A DNA stretch of 64,000 nucleotides, taken from Savitreella phatthalungensis. Lineage: Eukaryota. The number at the start of each line of letters is the position of its first letter. Position 1 is the first letter of the stretch. The notes under the pieces are model-generated. The model did no database searches and was not told the origin of the DNA. It was given only the letters and a program-made list of their open reading frames with translations. Of the stretch, positions 11,727 through 53,425 are shown one piece after another. The translations under genes were made by a program, and so were the position numbers. The stretch is from NCBI GenBank assembly GCA_051599415.1, contig AP039704.1, forward strand, positions 124,001 to 188,000, in the 5' to 3' direction.

Positions 11727-12542
11727 ATGGGCAAGGCGGCAGTGCTCGTGATGGGGCCTGCGGGGTCAGGCAAGTCGACGTTCTGTGGTGCACTGATGAC
11801 GCACATCCGGAATATTGGTCGACGAGCGTACTTGGTCAACATGGATCCTGCCGCTTCCGAGTTTGAGTTCACGCCCACGATCGACATTCGCGACCTGATA
11901 TCGCTTGGCGATGTGATGGAGGAATTGGATTACGGGCCTAACGGCGGACTCGTATATTGCTTTGAGTTTCTCATGGACAACCTCGACTGGTTCGAGGAGG
12001 AGCTAGGTGACTTTGACGACGACTATCTGATCATCGACATGCCAGGTCAGATCGAGCTTTACACGCACATTCCCGTGCTTCCAAAACTGGCGCGCTGGCT
12101 GCAGGACATTCACGGATTCCGGATCTGTGCAGCGTATCTGCTAGAGTCGCCCTTCATCATCGACAAGGCCAAGTTCTTCGCTGGCGTGATGTCTGCAATG
12201 TCGTGCATGGTCTCGATCGAGGTAGCCCACGTCAACATTCTGTCCAAGATGGACTTGATCAAGGATCAGGTGCGGACGGCAGAATTGCGGAGGTTTCTGG
12301 ATCCAGACCCGCTCATGGTGCTCGAGGATGCACAGGCACAAACGAATCCTAAATTTCATGACCTCAACACTGCTGTCGTCCGTCTCATCCAGGACTTCAA
12401 CATGGTATCGTTCCTCCAGCTGGAAGCGAGAGACGAAGAATCCGTCGCGAGAATTCTCAGCTACATCGACGATTGTACACAGTGGTTGGAAGACCAGGAG
12501 CCTAAAATGAAGGACGAGGAAGAAGTGGGTGACGACGAATAA
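11727..12542 (+). CDS. GPN3: GPN-loop GTPase 3
   Basis: P-loop GPAGSGKST, VNMDPAA, YGPNGGL (GPN loop), DMPGQIELYTH, NILSKMDL. Confidence 0.92.
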   Translation: MGKAAVLVMGPAGSGKSTFCGALMTHIRNIGRRAYLVNMDPAASEFEFTPTIDIRDLISLGDVMEELDYGPNGGLVYCFEFLMDNLDWFEEELGDFDDDYLIIDMPGQIELYTHIPVLPKLARWLQDIHGFRICAAYLLESPFIIDKAKFFAGVMSAMSCMVSIEVAHVNILSKMDLIKDQVRTAELRRFLDPDPLMVLEDAQAQTNPKFHDLNTAVVRLIQDFNMVSFLQLEARDEESVARILSYIDDCTQWLEDQEPKMKDEEEVGDDE

Positions 12543-14920: not shown

Positions 14921-17900
14921 ATGTCGAGACCGCGCATCAACCTAGACACATCAAATCTAGACCCTCGACAAGACATCGAGCCCTCAACCATTCACACTTC
15001 CTCGGGATCGCGCACCGGCAACAGGAGTACGAACGGTCACGGGAACATCAGTAACCACCCAGCGTCAGACGATATTCGCCCTGCGCAACCTTTGATGAGC
15101 TCCGTCACAAGTGGCGGCGAAGGATCTACGATGGTCGGCCAAGCTGACGCAAATCAAAGTGGCAAAGCAAATTATTTGAGTGTGCCAGGCGTGCGTGAGC
15201 GCGCATCTTCGACAGATTCATCTGCATGGTCCTCTGACGATGTTCACGTAGCACGTGCAGAGAAGGATGATGCAGAGCTCGATGCCCGCCGGATACTCGA
15301 AGAAGGCGAGGATGCATCGCCCTCAGACTCACATTTCGCCTTCACGAACAAGCAGTTGCAGGCGCTTGTGGATCCGAAAAACATCGAGCTTCTTCGGCAG
15401 ATGGGAGGTTTGCGTGGTTTAGCAAAAGGTCTTCAGAGTGATCTCAATGCCGGACTTTCATGGGATGAGACAATCTTGCCGCTCAAGGTCTCTCGAGAGG
15501 AGGCACTCGCATACGCTAAGGAGGCTGACACCGTGGATACCTCGAACGAGAAAGGCGGATCGAATGGTGACGATCGCCGGATAGTCATGACTCCTCAGAC
15601 GCCATCTCAGCAGCAAATGCTCTCAAAACGGCCGACCACGGGTCTGCGCAAGACACTCACGATGCGCAGCACTATGCGCCAGGACGAAAACAAGATGGTC
15701 GACCGTCAGGGTTACTTTGGCCGGAATGTGCTGCCTGCTCGTAAGACCAAGAACATCTTCCAGCTGATGTGGATCGCCCTGCAGGACAAGGTGCTCATCC
15801 TTCTGTCTATCGCAGCAGTCATCTCTTTGGCCCTTGGACTCTACGAAACGTTTGGTACACCCGAGGAGATCGTCGATGGCAGACCTGTGCCCCACGTCGA
15901 ATGGGTCGAAGGTGTGGCCATCATTGTCGCCATCCTCATCGTCACCGTCGTCGGCTCAGCAAACGACTTTCAGAAGGAACGTCAGTTCGCAAAGCTGAAC
16001 AAGAAGAAAGAGGACCGCAAAGTGACGATTGTACGGAGCGGCAAGACCGCGCGCATGTCAGTCTTCGATGTTCAGGTCGGCGATGTGATGAAATTCGAGC
16101 CAGGAGACGTGCTTCCCGTCGACGGAGTCCTCATTCAAGGACACAATGTCCGTTGCGACGAGTCTGCCGCAACAGGAGAATCCGACACGCTGAAGAAGAT
16201 GCCCGGTGACGAGGCTCTCCAGCTTGTCGACCCGGGTCAAGCCTTTGACAAGAAAGCTGATCCTTTCATGCTTTCTGGCGGCAAGGTGGTCGAAGGTGTA
16301 GGCTCGTTCCTTGTGACCTCAGTCGGTACCTCTTCCTTCAACGGCAAGACCATGATGGCTCTCCAGACCGAGGCCGAAGACACACCGCTCCAGGCCAAGC
16401 TCAACAACATCGCCACCATCATCGCCAAGCTCGGCGGTGCTGCAGCTCTCCTCCTCTTCGTCGTCACCTTCATTGAGTATCTCGTCCGTCTTCGCCACAA
16501 CGATGGCACGGCTTCGCAAAAAGGTCAGCAATTCTTGAATCTGCTCATCATTGCCATCACCGTCGTCGTCGTCGCCGTGCCCGAAGGTCTGCCACTGGCG
16601 GTCACGCTCGCACTCGCATTCGCAACAACGCGAATGGTCAAGGACAACTGTCTGGTGCGTATTCTGAAGTCCTGCGAGACGATGGGTGTTGCTACCACCA
16701 TTTGCTCTGACAAGACTGGTACGCTAACGCAGAATCGGATGACTGTCGTCGCTGGAACACTCAGTGTCAGCCAACGCTTCGCTCAGTCGCCCGAAGAGGC
16801 TGCCGCCGACCAGGCTCAGCGTGAAGTCGACCAGCCTGCTCCGAAACGTGCCGACACAGAGGAGATGCACGAGGAAACGAAGCAAATCACATCGTCCCTG
16901 GGACGCGCTCGCAATACCACTCGATTCGTGACGAAGCTCTCCGGCGCAGTCAAGGACATCCTGCTCGACAGCATCTCCCTCAACTCGACGGCTTTTGAGG
17001 GTGTTGACGAACATGGAAAGGACGGGTTCGTTGGCTCGAAAACAGAGACTGCCTTACTCGAGTTTGCACGGATACACCTTGGTATGGGCCCTGTCGCCAC
17101 CTTACGCGCCAATAAGCCCGTTGTCCACATGATCCCGTTCTCATCCGAGAAGAAATGTATGGGATGCGTCATCAAGCAGGCTGACGGCTCTTTCAGGCTG
17201 TTTACAAAGGGTGCTTCCGAGATTGTTTTGTCTTACTGCTCTCGCGTGCTTCAGGATCCTTTCATCGACGAGGCCAAGCCCATCACCCAGCCCATCTCTT
17301 CGCACGATCGCGAAAAGATGGGGGCAACGATCGACGAATACGCCGACCAGTCTCTTCGTACGATCGGTCTCGTGTACCGCGACTTCCCAAGCTGGCCACC
17401 GACTCAGGGCACAGAGCTGGACAAGCTGTTTGAGGACATGACCATGATCGGTATCGTCGGTATCATGGACCCACTTCGACCCGGTGTCAAGGACGCCGTC
17501 CAGACATGCAAGGAGGCCGGTGTTTTTGTCCGCATGGTCACCGGCGACAACGTCGTCACGGCGCGTGCGATCGCTCGCGAGTGCGGCATCTATACAGAGG
17601 GCGGCATCGTCATGGAGGGTCCAGTCTTCCGGAAGCTCTCGCCTGGCGAGATGGACCAGATTATTCCTAGACTCCAAGTACTTGCGCGCTCGTCTCCCGA
17701 GGACAAGCAAATTCTGGTCAAGCGATTGAAGCGTAACGGAGAGACTGTCGCAGTCACAGGAGACGGCACGAATGACGGTCCTGCACTCAAGATGGCCGAC
17801 GTGGGTTTCTCTATGGGTATCGCAGGCACAGAGGTCGCCAAGGAAGCCTCTGCTATCATTCTCATGGACGACAACTTCAGCTCGATCATCAAGGCCATGG

Positions 17901-19189
17901 CCTGGGGTCGTGCGGTTAACAACGCCGTCAAGAAGTTCCTCCAGTTCCAAATCACCGTCAATATCACCGCCGTTTTGCTCACCTTCATCTCGGCTGTTTC
18001 TGGCACAGATGAGACGTCTGTTCTCACAGCCGTCCAGCTTCTCTGGGTCAATTTGATCATGGACACGCTCGCAGCACTCGCTCTCGCAACTGACCCACCC
18101 GGCCCATCGCTGCTGAAGGTCAAGCCTGCTCGCAAGTCTGACAATCTGATCACATTCGACATGTGGAAGATGATCATCGGGCAGAGCATCTACCAGTTGA
18201 CCGTTACTCTAATCCTCTACTATGTCGGCGCCGATATCTTCGACTGGGACCTCTCAACAAACCAGGGTATGGTCGAACGCCAGACTGTCGTCTTCAACAC
18301 CTTTGTCTGGTGTCAGATCTTCAACCAGCTGAACAATCGTCGTCTCGACAACAAGTTGAACGTGTTTGAGGGCATCCTGCGCAACTACTTCTACATCATC
18401 ATTAACCTGGTCATGATTGGTGGTCAGGTCCTCATCATCTTCGTCGGCGGCCGCGCCTTCAGTGTCACGCGGATCAAAGGCGACGACTGGGCCGTTTCGA
18501 TCATCGTCGGTGCCATCTCGATTCCAATTGCCATCATCATTCGTCTGATCCCCAACAGCATCATCAGGATCTTTGTGCCCCGATTCATACTCGAGTACGA
18601 CAGCCGGAAGGTGGTCGAGATCTCGGACGAATCGCGCGCAGAGTGGAATCCGGCAATCAACCAGGTCCGTGACGAGCTTGCATTTATTCGCTACTTCCGC
18701 TCATCCCGCAGGATTGGTGACATTGGCAGACAGAAGAAATCAACAGACAAATACTTCCACGGCGACCGCGAGCGTTACCGCAAGGCTCGACAGGGTAGTG
18801 TGGCGGCAGCAATCATGATGCCTTCCTTTGTGGCTTCCTCGACTGCAGGCTTCGGTCCGCCGTCACCGTCACCTTCGTCAACTGGTCGACCTTCGTTCAA
18901 CGATGCTGCACGACGAGGATCCAGCAACGGGTCACAGTCTCAGGGTTCTCCCACGCGCACCGGTGCAGGTGAGAAGCTGCAATCTGAGCATCTCACACCC
19001 TTGCCTGCCACACAGTCTGCGCGTGCAGTAACAGCAGCACCACAGCCGACCTTCACAACCACCGTCTACCCTAGCAACGACACAGTGACACCACCAACAA
19101 GTACAAATCCCGCGACCGTTGCCGCAGTCGCACGCAACGCTGACCCCGGCCGTGCAACAGCAGCTGACCAAGCGGATCATCTAGTCTAG
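14921..19189 (+). CDS. PMC1: Vacuolar/PMCA-type P2B Ca2+-transporting ATPase
   Basis: TGES, VVAVPEGLPLAVT, phosphorylation site CSDKTGT, MVTGDN, GDGTNDGPAL, QLLWVNLIMDT. First ATG at 14921. Confidence 0.95.
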   Translation: MSRPRINLDTSNLDPRQDIEPSTIHTSSGSRTGNRSTNGHGNISNHPASDDIRPAQPLMSSVTSGGEGSTMVGQADANQSGKANYLSVPGVRERASSTDSSAWSSDDVHVARAEKDDAELDARRILEEGEDASPSDSHFAFTNKQLQALVDPKNIELLRQMGGLRGLAKGLQSDLNAGLSWDETILPLKVSREEALAYAKEADTVDTSNEKGGSNGDDRRIVMTPQTPSQQQMLSKRPTTGLRKTLTMRSTMRQDENKMVDRQGYFGRNVLPARKTKNIFQLMWIALQDKVLILLSIAAVISLALGLYETFGTPEEIVDGRPVPHVEWVEGVAIIVAILIVTVVGSANDFQKERQFAKLNKKKEDRKVTIVRSGKTARMSVFDVQVGDVMKFEPGDVLPVDGVLIQGHNVRCDESAATGESDTLKKMPGDEALQLVDPGQAFDKKADPFMLSGGKVVEGVGSFLVTSVGTSSFNGKTMMALQTEAEDTPLQAKLNNIATIIAKLGGAAALLLFVVTFIEYLVRLRHNDGTASQKGQQFLNLLIIAITVVVVAVPEGLPLAVTLALAFATTRMVKDNCLVRILKSCETMGVATTICSDKTGTLTQNRMTVVAGTLSVSQRFAQSPEEAAADQAQREVDQPAPKRADTEEMHEETKQITSSLGRARNTTRFVTKLSGAVKDILLDSISLNSTAFEGVDEHGKDGFVGSKTETALLEFARIHLGMGPVATLRANKPVVHMIPFSSEKKCMGCVIKQADGSFRLFTKGASEIVLSYCSRVLQDPFIDEAKPITQPISSHDREKMGATIDEYADQSLRTIGLVYRDFPSWPPTQGTELDKLFEDMTMIGIVGIMDPLRPGVKDAVQTCKEAGVFVRMVTGDNVVTARAIARECGIYTEGGIVMEGPVFRKLSPGEMDQIIPRLQVLARSSPEDKQILVKRLKRNGETVAVTGDGTNDGPALKMADVGFSMGIAGTEVAKEASAIILMDDNFSSIIKAMAWGRAVNNAVKKFLQFQITVNITAVLLTFISAVSGTDETSVLTAVQLLWVNLIMDTLAALALATDPPGPSLLKVKPARKSDNLITFDMWKMIIGQSIYQLTVTLILYYVGADIFDWDLSTNQGMVERQTVVFNTFVWCQIFNQLNNRRLDNKLNVFEGILRNYFYIIINLVMIGGQVLIIFVGGRAFSVTRIKGDDWAVSIIVGAISIPIAIIIRLIPNSIIRIFVPRFILEYDSRKVVEISDESRAEWNPAINQVRDELAFIRYFRSSRRIGDIGRQKKSTDKYFHGDRERYRKARQGSVAAAIMMPSFVASSTAGFGPPSPSPSSTGRPSFNDAARRGSSNGSQSQGSPTRTGAGEKLQSEHLTPLPATQSARAVTAAPQPTFTTTVYPSNDTVTPPTSTNPATVAAVARNADPGRATAADQADHLV

Positions 19190-19587: not shown

Positions 19588-20478
19588 ATGGCTACCAGGA
19601 CGGTGATGGTGCAGACTCTGACGAGCGCTCGGGGTCATCTCCCGAAACGGATACCTCCATCGTTGCGGGGTCTGCGGACAACACCCTGTGCTCGATCACG
19701 ACCTGTAGAGCCGCCGATATCGCCCGAGAGCACAGTACGGGGTGACGGTGGACGTGGACGGGTACGTCGTGCTGGCTTAGCGATCGTGAAGTACGGGTTG
19801 GTGGGCGGGCTGGCTGGGTACATTGGGTTCTCGCTATCTCGGCAGCTTGTTCACCCTCTCCCGACGCCTGCCGTCCGGGACCTGCCAAGGGCGGAAGTAG
19901 ACGCCCATGTGGCCGAGATCGAGCAACTCATCAACACACACCCGACCGTGCAAGCACTCCGTACACGCCAAGATCTCCACGAGTCAAGACCACACCTCCG
20001 AATCCACCCGTCAGACAAGCCACACAACCTGACGGCCGGCACGCTGGCCGGTCCGGGCAAGATCACGGTGGCGCCGTACGTGTGGGGGGATCGGGAGGGC
20101 AAGGAGCTGTATGTGGTTGCGCATTTGGGGAGGGATCTGTGTGGACACGATGGGATCGTGCATGGGGGTCTGCTTGCGACGTTTCTGGACGAAGGGCTTG
20201 CGCGGTGCTGCTTCAGGGCGCTACCAAACAAGATCGGCGTCACAGCCAACCTCACAATCGACTACCGCAAACCCACACGCGCACACCAGCTCGTCCTCAT
20301 GACCGCCCACACCACCTCCGTCCAAGGCAGGAAGGCCTACGTCGAGGGAAAACTACAGACGATGCCTAGAAACGCGTGGGAGCAGCAAGTCACGCTCGTC
20401 GAGGCCACTGCACTGTTCGTCGAGCCCAGGTACGCCAAGATGATGCGACGCGTCGTCAGACAGGAGTACCTCGAGTAA
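19588..20478 (+). CDS. Hotdog-fold (PaaI/THEM4-like, Fmp10-like) thioesterase, probably mitochondrial
   Basis: HLGRDLCGHDGIVHGGLLATFLDE catalytic motif, GVTANLTIDYRKPT, EATALFVEP. Arg-rich presequence followed by one hydrophobic segment. Confidence 0.85.
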   Translation: MATRTVMVQTLTSARGHLPKRIPPSLRGLRTTPCARSRPVEPPISPESTVRGDGGRGRVRRAGLAIVKYGLVGGLAGYIGFSLSRQLVHPLPTPAVRDLPRAEVDAHVAEIEQLINTHPTVQALRTRQDLHESRPHLRIHPSDKPHNLTAGTLAGPGKITVAPYVWGDREGKELYVVAHLGRDLCGHDGIVHGGLLATFLDEGLARCCFRALPNKIGVTANLTIDYRKPTRAHQLVLMTAHTTSVQGRKAYVEGKLQTMPRNAWEQQVTLVEATALFVEPRYAKMMRRVVRQEYLE

Positions 20479-20576
20479 GAACCCGTTTTCGATTGGTCAT
20501 AATTTCATGTACAGTATACTCTAGATATCTCCATAAATTCCCTGATCCACATGGTCTAACAACAAACCTACCACCC

Positions 20577-21551
20577 ATGATGCTCCCCTGTCGTCCGTAC
20601 CAGCCCGTGATTCGGGGTATGCGCCGGTACCACGACTTTGCGAGGACGACGCGGAAGGTGTGCTGCATCGGTCGTAACTACACCGCCCACATTGCCGAGC
20701 TCAACAACCAAACCCCGTCAACCCCGTTCTTCTTCCTCAAACCACCGTCCTCGATCGTCCAGCCCCCATCACCCTCAGGCACCTCGCTCACTCCACCACT
20801 CACGGGAAACGAACCCTCCTCACAACTCGACCCGTCCAACAGAGCCTTTCTCCAGCTGCCGAAGGGCGTCGAGTCGCACCACGAGGTCGAGTTGGGTGTG
20901 GTGATTGGGAAGGAATTGCGTGAGCTGGTGAGAGGGAAGAGGAGGATGCCGACCGGGAAGGATCGGGAGGATGGTGAGCGGTGGAAGGCGTACTTGGAGG
21001 ACCCCGGTGTGAGGGAGGCGTATGGGGCGGTCGCAGGGTATTTCACGGGGATCGACATGACAGGAAGGAATTTGCAGGAGCGGGTGAAGAAGGCAGGGTT
21101 GCCGTGGACAACACCAAAGGGGTTCGACTCGTACCTGCCGGCCTCGCACTACGTGCCGAAGGAGAAGGAGCTAAGGGAGGAGGTGGTGGTGGCAGGCGGG
21201 AGGAAGGTGAGGAATGTAGGCGAGGCGGTGCAGTATGGGTTGGTCGAGGTGTTCCTGTCGCTTTCAGGGGAAGGCGTCAGACAGAGGGATCGGACGGATC
21301 TGATGGTTTATGATTTGCCGAGGATCTTGAGTCACATCTCGTCAATCATGACGTTGTATCCGGGAGATGTAGTCCTCACGGGCACGCCAAAGGGAGTATC
21401 CAGGTGCAAGGACGGTCAGGTGATGGCCGCAGAGATGAGGGTTGTCAAGTGGGATAGAGAGGACACGTCTCCGGGAGAGGTCATCACCAACTCTCGCGTC
21501 GTCGTCGATTGCGTCGATCGAAAGGGTGGCTTCAACTTTACGGCCGAGTAG
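20577..21551 (+). CDS. Fumarylacetoacetate-hydrolase family protein (FAHD1/Fmp41-like acylpyruvase / oxaloacetate decarboxylase)
   Basis: KVCCIGRNYTAH, PFFFLKP, HHEVELGVVIG, IDMTGRNLQ, GLPW..KGFD, MTLYPGDVVLTGTPKGV. First in-frame ATG at 20577. Confidence 0.88.
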   Translation: MMLPCRPYQPVIRGMRRYHDFARTTRKVCCIGRNYTAHIAELNNQTPSTPFFFLKPPSSIVQPPSPSGTSLTPPLTGNEPSSQLDPSNRAFLQLPKGVESHHEVELGVVIGKELRELVRGKRRMPTGKDREDGERWKAYLEDPGVREAYGAVAGYFTGIDMTGRNLQERVKKAGLPWTTPKGFDSYLPASHYVPKEKELREEVVVAGGRKVRNVGEAVQYGLVEVFLSLSGEGVRQRDRTDLMVYDLPRILSHISSIMTLYPGDVVLTGTPKGVSRCKDGQVMAAEMRVVKWDREDTSPGEVITNSRVVVDCVDRKGGFNFTAE

Positions 21552-21801: not shown

Positions 21802-23271
21802 TTAGACCTCCTCCTCCTCGGCGTACTCCTCGTCCATGTCGTCCGTCGACGCCTCCTGGTACTGCTGGTACTCGGAAACGAGGTCGTGCATGTTGGATTC
21901 TGCCTCGGTGAATTCCATCTCGTCCATGCCCTCGGACGTGTACCAGTGGAGGAAGGCCTTTCTGCGGAACATGGCGGTGAACTGGTCGCCCACTCGCTTG
22001 AACAGCTCCTGGATCGAGGTCGAGTTGCCGATGAAGGTCGAGGACATCTTGAGACCGCGCGGTGGGATGGAGCAAAGTGCCATCTGGACGTTGTTGGGGA
22101 TCCATTCGACAAAGTATGACGAGTTCTTGGTCTGGACGCTCCGCATCTGCTCCTCAACCTCCTTCATCGACACCGCTCCACGGAAGTAGGCGGCAACGGT
22201 GAGGTAGCGACCGTGACGTGGATCGGCTGCGGCCATCATGTTCTTTGCGTCGAACATCTGCTGAGTCAACTCTGGCACGCTCAGGTTGCGGAATGAGTGG
22301 GCGCCGCGGGAGGTGAGCGGGGCAAAGCCGACCATGAAGAAGTGGAGACGTGGGAAGGGGACCATGTTGACTGCGAGCTTGCGCAGGTCGGAGTTGAGCT
22401 GTCCGGGGAATCGGAGGCAGGTGGTGATGCCAGACATGACGGCTGAGACGAGGTGGTTGAGGTCACCGTAGGAAGGTGCGTTGAGCTTGAGGGTGCGCAT
22501 GCAGATGTCGTATAGAGCCTCGTTGTCGATACAGAACGTCTGGTCGGAGTTCTCGACGAGCTGGTGGACGGAGAGGGTTGCGTTGTAAGGCTCGACCACT
22601 GTGTCGGAGACCTTGGGTGACGGCAGGACGGAGAAGGTAGCCATCATCCGGTCAGGGTACTCCTCACGGATCTTGGAGATGAGGAGGGTGCCCATACCGG
22701 CTCCTGTGCCACCACCGAGGGAGTGGGTGATCTGGAAGCCCTGGAGACAGTCACAGCCTTCTGCCTCGCGACGGACGACCTCGAGCACAGAGTCGACGAG
22801 CTCTGCGCCCTCGGTGTAGTGTCCCTTTGCCCAGTTGTTTCCAGCGCCGGACTGTCCGAAGACAAAGTTGTCTGGGCGGAAGAGGTTGCCGAAAGGTCCA
22901 GCGCGGACTGCGTCCATTGTTCCTGGTTCGAGGTCGACGAGGACTGCGCGAGGGACGTACTTGCCTGCAGCGGCCTATTGATAAAAGAGAGTCAGTCTCT
23001 AGATGATGATGTGGAGATAAGGGAATTCTCTGGTAGAGCTTACCTCGTTGAAGTAGACGTTCATGCGCTCCAGCTGGACATCGGAAGTGCCCTGGTAGAC
23101 ACCTGATCCATCGAGACCGTGCTCTCCGGAGATCTGAGACCAGAAGGCTGCACCGATCTGGTTACCGCACTCTGTGAGGGAGAAAGGTCAGTATTGAGGG
23201 AGACGGAGATGATTGATGAGAGGGGAGAAAGGAGACGTACGTCCTGTCTGAAGGTGAACAATTTCCCGCAT
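21802..23271 (-). CDS. TUB2: Beta-tubulin, 443 aa, 3 exons (23271-23241, 23171-23044, 22974-21802)
   Basis: Splicing out two 69-nt introns (23240-23172 GTACGT..CTGAC..CAG; 23043-22975 GTAAGC..CTGAC..TAG) gives [17 protein letters not shown]...[32 protein letters not shown] motif and acidic tail present. Confidence 0.98.
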
Positions 23272-23410
23272 GGTGGTGTATTAGAGTGTTTGATGAGCGT
23301 CGTGCTTGAGAGGTTGAAGACCCGTAGATGATCCTTTCGACGGATTGAAAGGAATGTGAAGTGATGAAGGGGTTAAGGTTGTAAGGTTGGAGGAGGGGGA
23401 TGTTGGCTCC

Positions 23411-23437
23411 TTGTTGTTGTTGTTGTTGTTGTTGTTG
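23411..23437. repeat. (TTG)9 microsatellite in the beta-tubulin 5' region; (GT)n tracts follow at about 23685-23740
   Basis: Read directly from the sequence. Confidence 0.9.
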
Positions 23438-24386
23438 TTTTTCCTGGAGGAAAGGTAGGTGGATTGGAAAGGGGGTTTGGTGATGGCCTGATGAATGGGA
23501 TGTTTTGGTGGTGATTGTGTGTATGTGAGTGTGAGTATGAGTGTATGGACTGAGGTTGGCGCGTAGAGGTGAAGGTTGGAAAGAGGTAGAGAGGATGAGG
23601 AGGAGGAGGAGGAGTGACCTGGAGTGTGTACACAGAGAGAGAGGAGACCTGGGAGTAGAGGAGGGTGTAGTGACCGTGGTGTTGGTGTGTGCGTGTGTGT
23701 GTGCGAGTGTACGTGTGTGTGTGTGTGTGTGTAAGTGTGTGTAAGTGCGTAGAGAGATCGAGAGAAAGTGAGAGTGAAAGAGAGAAAGTGGTTAAAGCAG
23801 AATAGAATTTTAGTAAATAAATGAATTTGGCTCTGGCTAGGGTGAATACTCATATTTTCGTGTTCGGGGGTTGAATCCAATTTGACCTGATCTAGATTGG
23901 AAACGCGCGAAACTCGAAAATAGTCTAATCACCAGCTCTCTGTAGCTCTAATATACTTAATTGACGTGGAATTTAAGTAAGAAGAATATTGTTTAAGCAA
24001 GAATCAAAACAAATCAATGGGGTAATCCACGTGGACGCAGATCTTTTGCATCCAGCTTCAATTGCACGTGCACACCAACAACTTTGTTCCATCTTACATC
24101 TCTGTTCTGGTTCAGCATTCCATGTCCTAGGTCGTCTCATCCCTGTGGAATCGATGGCCATGGACGCTTGGGTGATGACACTGTGGAGGATATCAGAAGA
24201 AAGACATCGAGCTAAATGCTATATTTGATGACTGACTCTCTCATCTACTTGCTCGCTCTCTCATTCACTCGTTCACTCTCTCACTTTCTCGTTCACTCAC
24301 TCGCTCTCTTTTGCTCTCTTCACTCTTTCTGCATAGGTGTTTGTGTGTATAGGTATGAGGAAAAGGGGTAGCTCTGGGTCCAATCA

Positions 24387-47930: not shown

Positions 47931-48305
47931 GTATGGAAGCTAGCGTGACCGAATGTAAAGCAATCGATGATCGAACTCGATGACTGACTGTCCGAGTGAA
48001 TGGCTGACTGACTGACTTGACTTGAGTGACATTCGTCTCTGTTGTCTGTGACTGGGTGGTTGTACATCGTTGTAGGCTGTGCTGTGCTGTGCTGTGCTGT
48101 GGTGTGGTGAACGGTGTGACTCCACCTGAATCGGCAAATGTCACAAATTAAACTCAATTCAGATCAACCCATCTCACAACACTATACTGTACTACCTACC
48201 ACACACGTACCACTACAACACTCTCTCTCTCTTTCTTCAAAGCAACACTCTCATCTTCTACCTCCTTCTTCTCCTTCGTCATCTGAGTCCTAACCATCTT
48301 CTACA

Positions 48306-48883
48306 ATGTCCTTCACCGTCACTCGCTCACTCTTGAACCGCAGCATTCCAACAATCGCTCGTTCCACAGTCATCAAGTCTTCACCTTCCACCCGCGCTTT
48401 CACAGCCGCCTCATTCCGTCTCGCAAGTAAGTCCTCACTCTGCCCACTCTCCATTCGCCCACTAGAGCACCGAATTGACGCTTCTCTCCTCTAGCCCGCA
48501 AGGCATACACGCCCCAACACGAGTGGATCTCCGTAGACCTGGACACGCGGGTCGGTACAGTCGGTGTGACAGAGTACGCTCAGAAGCAGCTTGGTGATGT
48601 CGTCTACTGCGAGGTTGTCGAGGTCGGAACTGCTGTCGAGCGAGGTGAGTCTCTCGGTGCGGTGGAGAGCGTCAAGTCAGCCTCAGACATCTACGCACCT
48701 GTCTCTGGAGAACTGATCGAGATGAACCCGGCACTCGCAGACAAGCCATCCACCATCAACAAGGCGGCAGAAGGCGAAGGCTGGCTCGCAAAGATCAAGT
48801 GCAACGAAGACGTCACCGACGAACTAGACCAGCTCCTCGACGCTGACGCCTACGCAAGCCACTGTCAGGGAGAGGAGCACTAA
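48306..48883 (+). CDS. GCV3: Glycine cleavage system H protein, 169 aa, 2 exons (48306-48426, 48495-48883)
   Basis: A 68-nt intron 48427-48494 (GTAAGT..TTGAC..TAG) joins a mitochondrial presequence to YTPQHEWI..VGVTEYAQKQLGDVVY. Lipoyl-Lys motif VESVKSASD. Confidence 0.95.
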
Positions 48884-49209: not shown

Positions 49210-51453
49210 ATGTCTTGGAGCCTGCTTACACGCGCAGAAGGCTTCCTAGATCGAGTCCTAGATGACGGTGGGACACCCGATCCGACTGCGGCTGCAGCGT
49301 CGACCTCTGCCTCAGCGTCCCCCGTCAAGCCCCGCGGCAGCAGCGAGGCCGCCCGTCCGAGCACACGGACAGATGCCGGTACAGCTAACGGGCCGGTCAG
49401 ACTGTCCCTGGCAGAACGGCTTGCACGCGCGACAGCCGTAAAGACCTCCAGCACCGTGTCATCCACAAGTCGGCCTGCCTCTCCTGCAGTACCTATACCA
49501 GCACCGGCGCCTCCACCGGTAGCTTCGACGTCTACTGTAACACCTGAGCTGACGGAACTCCAGCGGTCAGCGGTCTTCCCATGCAACATGCCTCACGTCC
49601 TTCCCGACCAGAGCCAGATACATAACGAACCTCTTCCTGCTCCGTCCACTCCTCCGCCAGCGCACGCAGGCACAATACCACGGGACACTACACCGCCCGA
49701 TGCTGCAGGGACAATCGCACAGCTACAGGCAGACCTACAAGCGTGTGAGAAGCGACGTGTGGACGAGCTTCACACAGCTGCAGAGCGGATCTCTTCACTC
49801 GAAGGCAAGCTATCGTACTACACTGCAGCGAAAGAGGCTGACGCTCGATTGGCCTCGATCTCCGGATCGGTTGATGGGGTGCGTGCTGAATTGGAAGGGC
49901 GGATTGCAGGGCTGGTGCGTGAGGGTGAGGCGCTGGCGAAGCGTGAAGGTGAGGCGCTGGAGGCTGCGCGGAAGCATAAGGCGCGGTGTGGTGAGCTGGA
50001 GTCGCTGATTGGGGCGTCGCTGAAAGCTGTGGAGAAGTCCGAGGGGACGCAGTCGCAGCTGAAGAAGGAGCTTGCCGCCGCAAGAGAAGCACGGACAGCA
50101 GCCGAGCGCAAGGCCAGGCAACTCGAACGCATCGAGTCACACGCCCAAGACCTCACCAAGTCAAAAGCAGATCTCCAAGGAAAACTCACCGAAGCAGAAC
50201 GCAAACTCAGAGACACAGCGCGCTCAGCATCCCAGGCAACCTCCCTCGCCACACAGCTAGACACACACAAGGACAGACTTGCGAAGCTAGAGGCCCGTGT
50301 ACAGGAACTGCTCTCGGACGCAAAGGCGACTGCTGAGGAGAATGCTTTGGAGCTGTCTGCGGTTCAGGCGAAGCTGGACCGGGCTGTTGAGCGGGGTGCT
50401 CAGGCTGATCGTGAGCACGCGGTCGAGGTCGGTCGGTTGGAAAGCCAGCTCGAGAGTGTTCGAGCTCGACTTGAGGACTCGTCCACTGGGTCTGACGCTC
50501 AGGGCACCACTCGCCTCCTCCGCCAGATCGAGACCCTCCAGCACGACCACGCCGCCTCAGCAGCCAACCTGCAGCTGATCGAGCGCGCTCTCGAACGCCG
50601 AGCCATCGACGCAGAAACCGACCGCGACCGTCTGACCGCCATCGAAGAATCCCTGCGAAAGCGCGTGCGCGAGGACGCAAAGCGTCTAGCAAACCTAGAC
50701 GAAGCCCTAGCACATCAGACCACCCTCACCGACACCGCTGGTCGCGAGTTAGCAGACCTGCGTGAGCAATTAGCGACTGCAGTAGCGGGGGCCGATGGCG
50801 CACGGCAGGCGCTCGCTGACGCGACGGCTGCATGGGAGACTGAACGACGCGAGCGCGCTGCTGCTGCTGCTGCTGCGGTTGTAAGCCGTGAGGATGTGTC
50901 TGTGGGTTCGCCAAAGGTGTCGTCACCGGCGGCAGGTTACTTCGGCTTCGTTCACCGCAGACCACCAAGGCAATCACGACACCCATCCACCTCCCCATCC
51001 TTCATTTCCTCTGCCGACGACGACAACGACGACGATAATTTCTCAGAAGGTACACGCACACAGGTCAACCACCGTCACTCAAGGAGGCCCTCACTCGCCT
51101 CACCTTCAGCAGTCGCAGTCGGAGAGGTCGGGTCTGGGAATGTAGGCTTGCTGGAGAGGCTTGCAGGCCAGGTGAGGCGGTTGGAAGGTGAGTTGCTGCT
51201 GGAGCGAGAGGAGAAGGTTAGGGTGTGTGGTCAGAGGGATGATGCGAGGGCGATGCTGGTGGAGATGGATGGGTTGAGGAAGCAGGCAGACAAGGTCGAT
51301 CAGCTTGAAGGGGAGATGAAAAAGTTGCAGGAGAGATTCGAGAAGACCTTGGAGTTGCTAGGACAGCAAACAGAGGAAAACGATCAACTCAAAGAGGATA
51401 TCAGCGACATGAAGCAAGCATACAGACTCGATATGGACAAAAGATTTACTTAA
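49210..51453 (+). CDS. SGM1: Golgin Sgm1/TMF1 (TATA-element modulatory factor family)
   Basis: N-terminal MSW..AEGFLDRVL, GLVREGEALAK, LLRQIETLQ, and the C-terminal TMF domain LLERLAGQVRRLEGE...LELLGQQTEENDQLKEDISDMK. Confidence 0.82.
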   Translation: MSWSLLTRAEGFLDRVLDDGGTPDPTAAAASTSASASPVKPRGSSEAARPSTRTDAGTANGPVRLSLAERLARATAVKTSSTVSSTSRPASPAVPIPAPAPPPVASTSTVTPELTELQRSAVFPCNMPHVLPDQSQIHNEPLPAPSTPPPAHAGTIPRDTTPPDAAGTIAQLQADLQACEKRRVDELHTAAERISSLEGKLSYYTAAKEADARLASISGSVDGVRAELEGRIAGLVREGEALAKREGEALEAARKHKARCGELESLIGASLKAVEKSEGTQSQLKKELAAAREARTAAERKARQLERIESHAQDLTKSKADLQGKLTEAERKLRDTARSASQATSLATQLDTHKDRLAKLEARVQELLSDAKATAEENALELSAVQAKLDRAVERGAQADREHAVEVGRLESQLESVRARLEDSSTGSDAQGTTRLLRQIETLQHDHAASAANLQLIERALERRAIDAETDRDRLTAIEESLRKRVREDAKRLANLDEALAHQTTLTDTAGRELADLREQLATAVAGADGARQALADATAAWETERRERAAAAAAAVVSREDVSVGSPKVSSPAAGYFGFVHRRPPRQSRHPSTSPSFISSADDDNDDDNFSEGTRTQVNHRHSRRPSLASPSAVAVGEVGSGNVGLLERLAGQVRRLEGELLLEREEKVRVCGQRDDARAMLVEMDGLRKQADKVDQLEGEMKKLQERFEKTLELLGQQTEENDQLKEDISDMKQAYRLDMDKRFT

Positions 51454-51475
51454 TCGGGCATCGTCCTCCCGCAAC

Positions 51476-53425
51476 CTACAACTTTGCCGATAAAGACATC
51501 GACTCCGACTTTCGTAGCTTCTCTAGTTGCCTTAGCACGTTACGCCGGATCTTGCCACTCACAGTTTTTGGTAGTCTCTGGACAATCTCGATCTCGCGCG
51601 GGTACTTGTAAGGTGCTGCAGTCCTCTTGACGTGTGCTTGGAGTTCTTGAGTGAGTGCTTTGAGTTTGGCTTGGTCTAGGACGTTGTGGATGGCTTTGAA
51701 GTCTGATAGATCTGCTTCTGCTTCTGCTGCGATGAGTGCCTGTGATCTTGGTTTCGGGGCTGGCTGGAGGAGGGTGGTGGTGGTGGAAGGGGACGAGAGG
51801 AGGGAATGCCAGACTGCAGGGGTGACGACGATGAAGGCCTTGACGACCAAGTCGCGCTCGCGGTCAGGCGAGCCGACAGCAGCAGACTCAACCACAGCAG
51901 CGTGCTCACGAAGCGCAGACTCAACCTCAAATGGACCGATCCGGTACCCGGCACTGTTGATAACATCGTCATCGCGACCGACGAACCAAAGGTAGCCCTG
52001 TTGGTCGAGCGTCGCTCGATCGCCCGTTGGGTAGTACGATCTTGATGACCAGCTTTGTTGCGGATCTGGGGTGAGCGGCTGGGGTGGTGGGTGGGTGGGG
52101 TCCGGTATGATCGTGGAGGGCGGGATGGACGGGGTGGTGCGTGTCGGGCGCTGGAGTGAATCGGTGGAGGGATCCCAGTAACCGAGGAATATGAAGTGGT
52201 CTGACTGGGTGGTGACACCGGTGGCACGATCGGTTTCGGAAGTGACGATGGCGAGATCACCCTCTGAGACGCCATCAGGAGGTAGCTCGTTGCCGTCAGC
52301 GTCAATGACGGCTAGCGTGATGCCGGGCATCGCTTGACCCATCGACCCAGGTCGTACGGTGACGTTAGTCGAGTTGGCACAGACGCAGATCGTTTCCGTC
52401 TGACCGAAAGCGTCACGAATCGTCAATCCCGTTGCCTTTCGCCATAGATCGATGACACTGGCATTGAGCGGCTCGCCCGCGCCACAGCAGTGAACGAGCG
52501 CTTTTGGAGGGAGGGAGGCGAGCTGTGTGAGAGCGGTCGCTGTGCAGAGCTGGCGGTAGACTGTCGGCGCTGCGCAGAGGGTGGTGATTGGATATGTGTG
52601 GAGGGTTTTCAGGGTATCGGAAACACTGAAAGGACCGCGGAGGTCTTGGACGAAGAGCGCCGCACCATTCGTCCACGCTCCGCAGACAGACCAGCCGGCC
52701 TTTGCCCAGCCTTGCTCGCTCATATTCCAATAGATCTTGCCTGGGCACAGATCGAGCCAGTGCTTGCCTGTGAGGGAGTGACCAAGCGCGTAAGAGACCT
52801 GGGAGTGGAGGACTGCTTTTGGGTTGCCTGTCGTGCCGGAGGTGAAGTAAAGGAGGGCTGGGTCTGACGCACGCGTCTGGACGCCTTTGAATGACGCAGA
52901 TCTGGCCGCAGCGGCCGATATGAGAGTGCTGTAGTCAAGTCTGCCGTGACCGTGTTGAGAAGCATCTGCAGACATGTCTTCTGGATCCCGGATGCAGATG
53001 CGCTTCAGGTTGGACAAGGTGGACGCCTCGGGGTCGGCTGCGATCGCGCGTTCGAGCTTCGAGAGAGCGTCGTGGTCTGCAAAGATGTGGGTCGCTCTGG
53101 CCTTGCGAACGCGATACAGGAGATCTTTGCCGACGAGGAGGGTGGTGCATGGTGCTGGAATCGCTCCCAGGCGTGAGAGCGCAGTGAAGACGATCCACCA
53201 CTCAGCCCAGCGCGGAAGCACCATGATGACAACGTCTCCTCGCCGTACTCCGGCCTCTTTCAGGGCAGTAGCAGCCACGATTGAAGCCTTGGCAATGTCT
53301 GCAAATGTATGCCGGGAGACGGTTCCCCCGCTGGAGACGTGCATGAGCGCGAGCCGAGAGACATCCTGCGCCGCTTGCTTATCGACAACATCGACAGCGA
53401 AGTTGTAGTACTCTGGCGGGGTCAT
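51476..53425 (-). CDS. Medium-chain acyl-CoA synthetase (ACSM-like AMP-binding enzyme) with PTS1
   Basis: YNFAVDV, YFTSGTTGNPK, GWAK, AGEPLN, FGQTET, TGDR, GRDDDVINSAGYRIGPFEVES, YKYPREIE, LPKTVSGKIRR. Ends in -AKL. First ATG at 53425; frame open to TTG 53569. Confidence 0.9.
   Translation of the reverse strand: MTPPEYYNFAVDVVDKQAAQDVSRLALMHVSSGGTVSRHTFADIAKASIVAATALKEAGVRRGDVVIMVLPRWAEWWIVFTALSRLGAIPAPCTTLLVGKDLLYRVRKARATHIFADHDALSKLERAIAADPEASTLSNLKRICIRDPEDMSADASQHGHGRLDYSTLISAAAARSASFKGVQTRASDPALLYFTSGTTGNPKAVLHSQVSYALGHSLTGKHWLDLCPGKIYWNMSEQGWAKAGWSVCGAWTNGAALFVQDLRGPFSVSDTLKTLHTYPITTLCAAPTVYRQLCTATALTQLASLPPKALVHCCGAGEPLNASVIDLWRKATGLTIRDAFGQTETICVCANSTNVTVRPGSMGQAMPGITLAVIDADGNELPPDGVSEGDLAIVTSETDRATGVTTQSDHFIFLGYWDPSTDSLQRPTRTTPSIPPSTIIPDPTHPPPQPLTPDPQQSWSSRSYYPTGDRATLDQQGYLWFVGRDDDVINSAGYRIGPFEVESALREHAAVVESAAVGSPDRERDLVVKAFIVVTPAVWHSLLSSPSTTTTLLQPAPKPRSQALIAAEAEADLSDFKAIHNVLDQAKLKALTQELQAHVKRTAAPYKYPREIEIVQRLPKTVSGKIRRNVLRQLEKLRKSESMSLSAKL

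What the first reader, a model, noticed from the sequence alone, without database searches (positions are those of the whole stretch)
19588..21551. Block-wise G/T versus C/A oscillation written into synonymous codon positions
Seen: the sequence flips between G/T-rich and C/A-rich blocks of about 100-250 nt inside the CDSs. Within the conserved thioesterase domain, 20101-20160 has 42/60 G+T and 17/20 third positions G/T. Just 60 nt later, 20221-20280 has 14/60 G+T and 1/20 third positions G/T. Protein constraint therefore does not explain it. It also shapes amino acids: a P/S/T-rich insert lies in a C block and an R/G/E-rich insert in a G block of the FAH protein. A GT-block/CA-block pair is symmetric under reverse complement. 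Known: Schizosaccharomyces species have dyad-symmetric nucleosomal base-composition signatures. Inference: this may be an unusually strong chromatin-positioning code, a position-dependent strand-asymmetric mutation process, or selection for long fold-back RNA.
Basis: partly seen in the sequence, partly recalled or inferred. Interest (0 to 1): 0.72.

Follow-up and report, generated by a model that had tools for sequence, protein, structure and literature searches.

The report
Alternating G/T and C/A gene blocks
In this leaf-yeast-type fungus, over a quarter of the genes sampled carry alternating ~190-base stretches where one DNA strand is rich in G and T and then in C and A; these stretches gather just past the ends of strongly used neighbouring genes, which points to a local mutation bias strong enough to change proteins.

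Summary
Third-position G+T blocks exceed synonymous shuffles 4.8-fold in the thioesterase and 2.7-fold in the FAHD1-like gene. In 864 kb of this Taphrinomycetes-like genome, 83 of 293 ORFs show it. Blocks average ~190 nt, alternate, are compositional mirror images on either strand, and affect all codon families. There is no 150-165 nt period and no extra RNA fold-back, so a nucleosome code and hairpin selection are not supported. New here: amplitude is highest within ~1.5 kb past the 3' end of strongly codon-biased neighbours (convergent pairs, rho 0.46, n=118; 0.48 without this window). The finding lies between two such genes, a Ca-ATPase and beta-tubulin. Compositionally it matches bacterial GRINS skews, but the genes are single-copy, so it fails the GRINS definition. 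Best reading: a strand-polar mutation/repair footprint in the read-through zone of strong genes. The molecular step and the cause of alternation are inferred, expression is only a codon-bias proxy, and no other fungal genome could be compared.

The parts
19588..20478 (+). Thioesterase gene (PF03061; fungal mitochondrial PaaI-like family), single copy, four alternating blocks
   Evidence: only a 36% paralogue in the genome
19777..19866 (.). G/T block, third positions 21/30 G/T
19900..20025 (.). C/A block, third positions 11/42 G/T
20047..20202 (.). G/T block in the conserved domain, 42/52 G/T
20218..20364 (.). C/A block in the conserved domain, 10/49 G/T (no T at third positions)
20577..21551 (+). 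FAHD1/Fmp41-like gene (PF01557), single copy, with lineage inserts; converges on beta-tubulin across 250 nt
20685..20855 (.). C/A block, 13/57 G/T; holds the P/S/T-rich insert (about 20772-20843)
20880..21053 (.). G/T block, 46/58 G/T; holds the R/G/E-rich insert (about 20928-21011)
21150..21338 (.). G/T blocks, 28/36 and 16/22 G/T; hold a third insert
21802..23271 (-). Beta-tubulin, third-ranked in codon bias among the 293 ORFs; its 3' end points into the finding; itself flat (z 0.6)
14921..19189 (+). P-type cation (Ca-type) ATPase, upper third of codon bias (0.17; cut 0.044); its 3' end lies 398 nt before the thioesterase; itself flat (z -0.1)

Best explanation
The blocks are the long-term footprint of a strand-polar mutation/repair bias, not a selected code. 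It acts in the 1.5-2 kb past the 3' end of strongly transcribed genes, above all between tightly packed convergent genes, the zone where read-through polymerase, torsional stress and cohesin gather in other yeasts. In patches of ~190 nt one strand loses C and A and gains G and T; the next patch does so on the other strand. SHOWN: strand-independent mirror composition, all codon families, preferred block length with alternation, dependence on the neighbour's codon bias and distance, spill-over into amino acids. INFERRED: that codon bias stands for transcription; that the process is mutation rather than weak selection. SPECULATIVE (about 0.25): the patches are recurrent single-stranded exposures (R-loop or stalled-polymerase bubbles) where C deaminates to T, or goes through an abasic site to G, and A goes to G; a G-rich, locally unstructured patch then re-forms the exposure in the same place and polarity. 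Why neighbouring patches flip is unexplained.
For: 4-fold sites in extreme C/A context A.30 C.50 G.11 T.10, in extreme G/T context A.11 C.16 G.44 T.29, G+C constant at 0.60. 132 G/T blocks on coding strands and 129 reverse-complemented C/A blocks have the same composition. Both switch types equally common (96 vs 78; null 18 and 18). Convergent pairs: last-600-nt amplitude vs partner codon bias rho 0.46 (118 gene sides, permutation p 0.0005), 0.45 with the partner's 5' part only (n=90), partial 0.39 given own bias and GC3; 0.48 without this window (n=110), controls G+C 0.06 and purine 0.15; an independent non-coding proxy, the partner's promoter C-skew, gives 0.40 (n=104) against 0.14 for the gene's own. 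Amplitude falls from 2.4 to 1.2 over ~1.7 kb next to high-bias partners. Joint fit: raised past 3' ends of high-bias genes on either strand (1.33 [0.73,1.92]; 1.16 [0.47,1.75]), not at promoters (0.06; -0.38). The most codon-biased genes resist (4 of 30 vs 27 of 67). Slopes are larger at 4-fold than at context-matched 2-fold sites (+0.21+-0.07), as expected of a mutation flux with transversions and not of base-level selection. Block polarity seems not shared with the nearest relative. Of three paralogues at 64-65% identity only the one in a convergent pair with a high-bias partner is skewed.
Against: No mutation, polymorphism or expression data. The positional model explains only 8% of tile variance. 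Within pairs the weaker gene is the more skewed in only 30 of 59 (rho 0.26, p 0.048); own and partner bias correlate (0.36) and skew tracks locus GC (rho 0.50), so a regional factor contributes; the partial correlation drops to 0.30 when partner GC3 is also held. Simple R-loop polarity is contradicted: leaders of high-bias genes are C-rich on the non-template strand (C 35%, G 16%), both block types rise together (4.6 to 15.3% and 5.2 to 12.5%), and same-strand neighbours act too. Codon positions 1-2 shift by about 40% of the 4-fold shift, large for mutation alone. Intergenic DNA shows no trough. One of four matched 2-fold/4-fold contrasts has the opposite sign.
Confidence: 0.5

Rival explanations
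1. Selection at DNA/RNA level: polar, locally unstructured patches are kept because they pause or terminate read-through polymerase from strong neighbours, or help nucleases or helicases track the RNA.
For: Same geography. Local RNA structure (span up to 60 nt) is weaker than in synonymous shuffles on both strands (z +2.2 and +1.8 in 20 strong segments; -0.3 and -0.4 in 14 weak ones). Large effect at codon positions 1-2. Human genes in dense regions carry terminal GC skew with R-loops (PMC3787257, passages).
Against: Natural terminator DNA here is not G/T-rich. No polarity preference and no fixed phase beyond the last ~150 nt. No motif at switches beyond weak 5-mer excesses. G4-like motifs do not exceed composition (33 vs 37.4+-5.1). 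4-fold slopes exceed 2-fold slopes. Sense-strand blocks would also hit the gene's own transcript.
Confidence: 0.2
2. Recombination-linked bias: repeated allelic or sister repair synthesis or gene conversion at cohesin/axis sites writes the skew, as proposed for GRINS in repeated genes.
For: GRINS-identical composition and amino-acid shifts. [quoted passage not shown] Skew rises with GC3 (0.37) and locus GC (0.50).
Against: The same paper reports Spo11 cuts depleted at axis sites. Resection around a break would give one switch type only (inference); both are equal. The local G+C gain does not track amplitude (rho 0.01, n=81). A gene with 70-78% internal repeats is only weakly skewed (z 2.3).
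Confidence: 0.15
3. Nucleosome-positioning code or dyad-phased signature.
For: Block length (medians 183 and 195 nt, CV ~0.4) is near one nucleosome repeat; neighbours are actively anti-aligned; dyad-symmetric signatures exist in fission yeasts (PMC4422121).
Against: Known signatures repeat once per nucleosome along all ORFs; here the cycle is ~400-450 nt with no 150-165 nt power, is patchy, and G+C and WW are flat across switches.
Confidence: 0.08
4. Selection for long fold-back mRNA between G/T and C/A blocks.
For: Predicted pairs shift to long range (0.45 vs 0.34 spanning >100 nt).
Against: No gain in total folding energy: z +0.9 and +0.5 against dinucleotide shuffles; -0.10+-0.41 against global and -0.49+-0.36 against block-preserving synonymous shuffles, weak controls -0.28 and -0.43. 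The alternation runs across convergent junctions between different mRNAs.
Confidence: 0.03

Closest known systems
[quoted passage not shown] 2021, PMC8256042)
   Same: Intense, positively correlated GC and TA skews that flip abruptly within coding DNA, both signs on one strand, strongest at third positions; Gly/Val/Cys/Trp up in G/T parts and Pro/Thr/His/Gln up in C/A parts; origin unknown.
   Different: No duplication: single-copy housekeeping genes of a fungus; a preferred ~190-nt block length; tied to neighbours' 3' ends. The paper mentions single-copy skewed regions in PKS clusters, and GRINS in amoeba and choanoflagellate PKSs, only briefly.
Opposite GC skews at 5' and 3' gene ends in unicellular fungi (McLean and Tirosh 2011, PMC3315797); TSS C-skew (Fujimori 2005, PMC555766)
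   Same: Transcription-linked skew at 4-fold sites that alters amino-acid use; the promoter C-skew exists here and scales with codon bias (rho 0.55).
   Different: Those are single gradients fixed to gene ends with flat AT skew; here T/A swings with G/C, both polarities alternate, and strong genes lean C/A, not G, in their last 200 nt.
Nucleosomal signatures of Schizosaccharomyces (Quintales 2015, PMC4422121; Gonzalez 2016, PMC5088595)
   Same: Reverse-complement-symmetric base asymmetry that reaches codons and amino acids.
   Different: One cycle per ~150-bp nucleosome, along all ORFs, shown as averages over thousands of nucleosomes; here ~450-nt cycles visible by eye in a subset of genes.
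Terminal GC skew and R-loops of closely spaced human genes (Ginno 2013, PMC3787257)
   Same: Skew at 3' ends of tightly packed genes.
   Different: Co-oriented G skew of one sign, mostly tandem genes; here both signs inside the neighbour's coding sequence.

Membership tests
GRINS | [quoted passage not shown] | tested here: met
   Thioesterase 0.194/0.226; whole interval 0.264/0.163; FAH alone fails (0.356/0.129). 24 of 47 genes with z>5 pass, 6 of 165 weak genes.
GRINS | Correlated, abruptly flipping GC and TA skews, strongest at third positions, with G/V/C/W versus P/T/H/Q shifts | tested here: met
   r 0.86 in the thioesterase, median 0.51 in 47 strong genes, -0.05 in weak ones, 0.04 in FAH; amino-acid shifts.
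GRINS | Region duplicated (>500 bp, >80% identity) | tested here: not met
   Only the self match in the genome; best 150-nt identity elsewhere in the window 50%; proteins single copy apart from a 36% paralogue.
GRINS | Gene conversion acting on the skewed region | not testable with these tools
   No paralogous copy to convert with; allelic conversion needs population or tetrad data.
Fission-yeast nucleosomal signature | Period equal to the nucleosome repeat (~150-165 bp) | tested here: not met
   Relative power 0.98 at 163 nt and 1.08 at 150 nt against 6.9 at 450 nt (26 long strong genes); no peak in raw DNA.
Fission-yeast nucleosomal signature | Phase locked to nucleosome dyads | not testable with these tools
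   No MNase run listed.
McLean-Tirosh gene-end GC skew | C-biased 5' end to G-biased 3' end on the coding strand, AT skew flat | tested here: not met
   Strong genes lean G/T in the first ~480 nt and C/A in the last ~200 nt; T/A slope 0.24 beside G/C 0.52.
Terminal GC skew / R-loop terminators | Located at 3' ends of closely spaced genes | tested here: met
   59 of 160 convergent vs 18 of 102 tandem genes have z>3; last 600 vs first 600 nt 1.91 vs 1.13 in 65 convergent genes.
Terminal GC skew / R-loop terminators | G-rich on the non-template strand of the terminating gene | tested here: not met
   Both polarities rise together with partner bias; net signed skew near zero beyond the last 150 nt.
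Terminal GC skew / R-loop terminators | R-loops form there | not testable with these tools
   Needs DRIP or footprinting.

The most novel reading that the evidence does not exclude
GRINS-type skew is not a property of repeats but a self-organising mutational pattern: in the stress zone past strong genes' 3' ends, DNA breaks up into ~190-nt domains of alternating strand polarity that reinforce themselves, relocate between species, and push substitutions into otherwise invariant protein sites, so that a neighbour's transcription rewrites a gene's codons and amino acids.
Probability: 0.3. Interest if true: 0.85.

Novelty: new variant of a known kind. Interest (0 to 1): 0.66.

Why it matters
The origin of the intense, flipping G/T versus C/A skews in GRINS is stated to be unknown. 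Here the same skew appears without repeats, in about 28% of sampled single-copy genes of a compact fungal genome, with a positional rule that can be tested: strength and distance of the neighbour's 3' end. That separates skew formation from paralogue conversion and turns it into a measurable mutation-spectrum or chromatin experiment. It also means codon bias, dN/dS and amino-acid composition in this lineage carry a neighbour-dependent bias that phylogenetic models ignore.

Tried and rejected
Fold-back RNA: no gain. Nucleosome period and GC/WW/CpG modulation at switches: none. One-polarity dipoles, as a break, origin, promoter or terminator would give: both polarities equal. Phase lock to stop, junction midpoint or partner stop: only the last ~150 nt. 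Codon-context artefact: signal survives. Motif at switches and G4 excess: none beyond composition. GU-rich terminator mimicry: natural 3' DNA is not G/T-rich. CpG-methylation decay: CpG ratio 1.02-1.04, though TG/CA is the most shifted context. Local G+C gain as driver: does not track amplitude. Comparison with other fungi failed: the metagenome scan gave 2 short distant loci of 80 candidates and the genome has no relatives in the held set. Runs: no RNA holder listed; the two good DNA holders are one sample that may be the source; no read data were obtained, so polymorphism is untested. Earlier-findings look-ups by place and two of three by words returned nothing relevant.

Full report
Setting. 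The window lies in a 12.7-Mb, 27-contig, intron-poor fungal genome. The best named homologues of both proteins are Protomyces, and for FAH also Taphrina, so the organism is Taphrinomycetes-like; I did not identify it further. The interval holds a thioesterase (19588-20478) and a FAHD1/Fmp41-like gene (20577-21551), preceded by a P-type ATPase on the same strand and faced by beta-tubulin on the other.

1. Observation. The counts are exact. With amino acid and first two bases fixed, block variance of third-position G+T is 4.84 times the shuffled mean in the thioesterase and 2.72 times in FAH; fixing the next base as well leaves 3.9 and 2.2. In FAH the all-position signal is mostly G versus C.

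2. What it is. I sampled 80 scattered 10-kb stretches plus the window, 864 kb or about 7% of the genome, and took all 293 ATG-to-stop ORFs of at least 200 codons (no intron models; short, split and edge-cut genes are missing). 83 of 293 have z>3 for G+T versus A+C, against 14 for G+C and 22 for purines; 165 are flat at z<1.5. The stricter null gives 87 of 293. Using neighbouring codons to define the state, all 21 codon boxes shift the same way (some within error); 4-fold sites go from A.30 C.50 G.11 T.10 to A.11 C.16 G.44 T.29 at constant G+C. G/T blocks on coding strands and reverse-complemented C/A blocks match in composition, and the alternation continues across 21 convergent junctions. So it is a property of the DNA strand, not of the mRNA. 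Blocks have medians of 195 and 183 nt (88 and 85 blocks). The autocorrelation of 59 genes with z>4 has a trough near 190-210 nt and almost no second peak; of three simulated processes only alternating blocks of preferred length reproduce it (the simulation did not mimic the selection of genes). Power peaks near 450 nt and is absent at 150-163 nt. The two switch types are equally common.

3. Where it occurs. Amplitude decays from a gene's own stop (1.66 to 1.06) and from convergent junctions (2.0 to 1.16), not from the start. 59 of 160 convergent, 18 of 102 tandem and 6 of 31 unclassified genes are strong. Seeing FAH face tubulin, I predicted that the partner's expression would matter and tested it with a self-consistent codon-bias index. 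In 59 convergent pairs (118 sides) amplitude in the last 600 nt follows the partner's bias (rho 0.46, permutation p 0.0005) more than the gene's own (0.30); it holds with the partner's 5' part only, after partialling (0.39; 0.30 with partner GC3 too), without this window (0.48), not for G+C or purine variance, and with the partner's promoter C-skew as a second proxy (0.40 vs own 0.14). Next to high-bias partners amplitude is ~2.4 for 600 nt and ~1.2 by 1.7 kb, and both block types rise. A joint fit over 2852 tiles refines this: the zone is downstream of a high-bias gene's 3' end in either orientation, not near promoters. Against: R2 is 0.08, the within-pair test is weak (30 of 59 signs; 20 of 29 in the larger-gap half), simple tandem and divergent correlations were 0.22, -0.10 and 0.27 (not significant, n 46-47), and regional GC covaries. 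The finding sits between the 3' ends of two high-bias genes, which fits its strength, although the thioesterase, farther from tubulin, is the stronger. In budding yeast this zone holds positive supercoils and cohesin (PMC8360656, passages) and Red1, which gathers downstream of the stronger gene of a convergent pair (PMC4530585, passages).

4. Effect on proteins. In G/T states Gly, Glu, Cys, Trp, Val rise and His, Thr, Pro, Ile, Gln, Asn fall. Against homologue consensus, the two proteins' substitutions lean with the blocks: 11:2 towards G/T in G/T blocks, 9:12 in C/A blocks (p 0.03 pooled; neither gene alone significant; 34 of 57 substitutions were informative and inside blocks). The nearest relative shows 6:7 and 13:5 at the same columns (p 0.26), so polarity does not look shared.

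5. Mechanism. Fold-back selection fails; local structure is in fact weaker on both strands, which follows from composition. A nucleosome code of the known kind fails on period and coverage. Mutation is favoured over selection by strand symmetry, the lack of motif or phase, resistance of the top codon-bias decile (4 of 30 vs 27 of 67), and steeper slopes at 4-fold than at matched 2-fold sites (+0.21+-0.07; bootstrap 0.08-0.33; three of four contrasts positive). G and T gain with C and A loss is what damage to an exposed single strand gives (C to T, C to G through abasic sites, A to G; recalled knowledge), so I commit to recurrent single-strand exposure with sequence feedback as the likeliest step. 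But leaders of high-bias genes here are C-rich on the non-template strand, and there is no net polarity relative to read-through, so which strand is exposed, and why neighbours flip, is open. Overall 0.5 for a transcription-linked mutation/repair footprint, about 0.25 for the R-loop/feedback detail.

6. Known systems. The skew half of the GRINS definition is met and the amino-acid shifts are the same, but duplication is not. It works like the GRINS skew and is not a GRINS. It differs from the gene-end gradient of McLean and Tirosh and from fission-yeast nucleosomal signatures as listed. A note on another fungus (e1-7559115) describes ~1-kb C-to-G domains at gene ends, possibly related, not checked here.

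7. Novelty. Nine answered paper searches (listings only) showed no report of alternating keto-skew blocks in fungal single-copy genes or of a dependence on the neighbour's 3' end; the library lacks most subscription papers. I could not test other fungal genomes, so this may be commoner than it looks. Papers seen: PMC8256042 passages and parts 2 and 4 of 5; PMC3315797 and PMC4422121 abstract and parts 1-2 of 4; PMC3787257, PMC8360656, PMC4530585, PMC555766 passages; PMC5088595 abstract and opening. No supplement was read; the GRINS supplement (third-position skews, single-copy regions) may bear on how far this is already described.

8. Verdict. Real, genome-wide, strand-polar, with a new positional rule and an inferred mechanism. 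New variant of a known kind; interest 0.66.

Noticed in passing
window 49800-52300: Strongest packet of the window (z 18): about four cycles of 360-480 nt across a convergent junction with a 22-nt gap between a TMF1-like and an AMP-binding gene.
   Followed up: partly
window 47940-48883: Intron-containing glycine-cleavage H gene (PF01597) missed by the long-ORF list; a G/T stretch then a C/A stretch precede it, like back-to-back leaders; the PIG-L gene before it is strongly skewed (z 13.7) without an opposing neighbour.
   Followed up: partly
window 23280-23810: About 500 nt upstream of beta-tubulin are C/A-rich on its sense strand, with CA and CAA runs.
   Followed up: partly
L084:829-2355 and L085:1-2796: Two C5 DNA methylases; 508-aa and 2085-aa frames. 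RID-like and Dnmt5-like labels are recalled from motif and length, not from a call. CpG is not depleted in coding DNA.
   Followed up: partly
G000 C4, C6, C13, C17: Piwi-domain gene, RNase H and uracil-DNA glycosylase family genes are present, so the bias is not explained by their loss.
   Followed up: no
window 20577-21551; P0002, P0122: The FAHD1-like protein has ~80 aa of inserts shared with one unnamed relative whose FAH and thioesterase both come from a 15,282-nt contig; there the second insert is P/A-rich rather than R/G/E-rich.
   Followed up: partly
window 20215-20217: Arg replaces a Pro kept in all 10 aligned relatives, at the right edge of a G/T block.
   Followed up: no
P0006; window 11727-12542: The Taphrina deformans FAH hit is annotated fused to a GPN-loop GTPase; a GPN gene lies 8 kb upstream here, so the fusion may be a gene-model error on conserved synteny.
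   Followed up: no
L036:2673-6521: 1282-aa secreted-looking protein with long internal repeats at 64-78% DNA identity; only weakly skewed (z 2.3).
   Followed up: no
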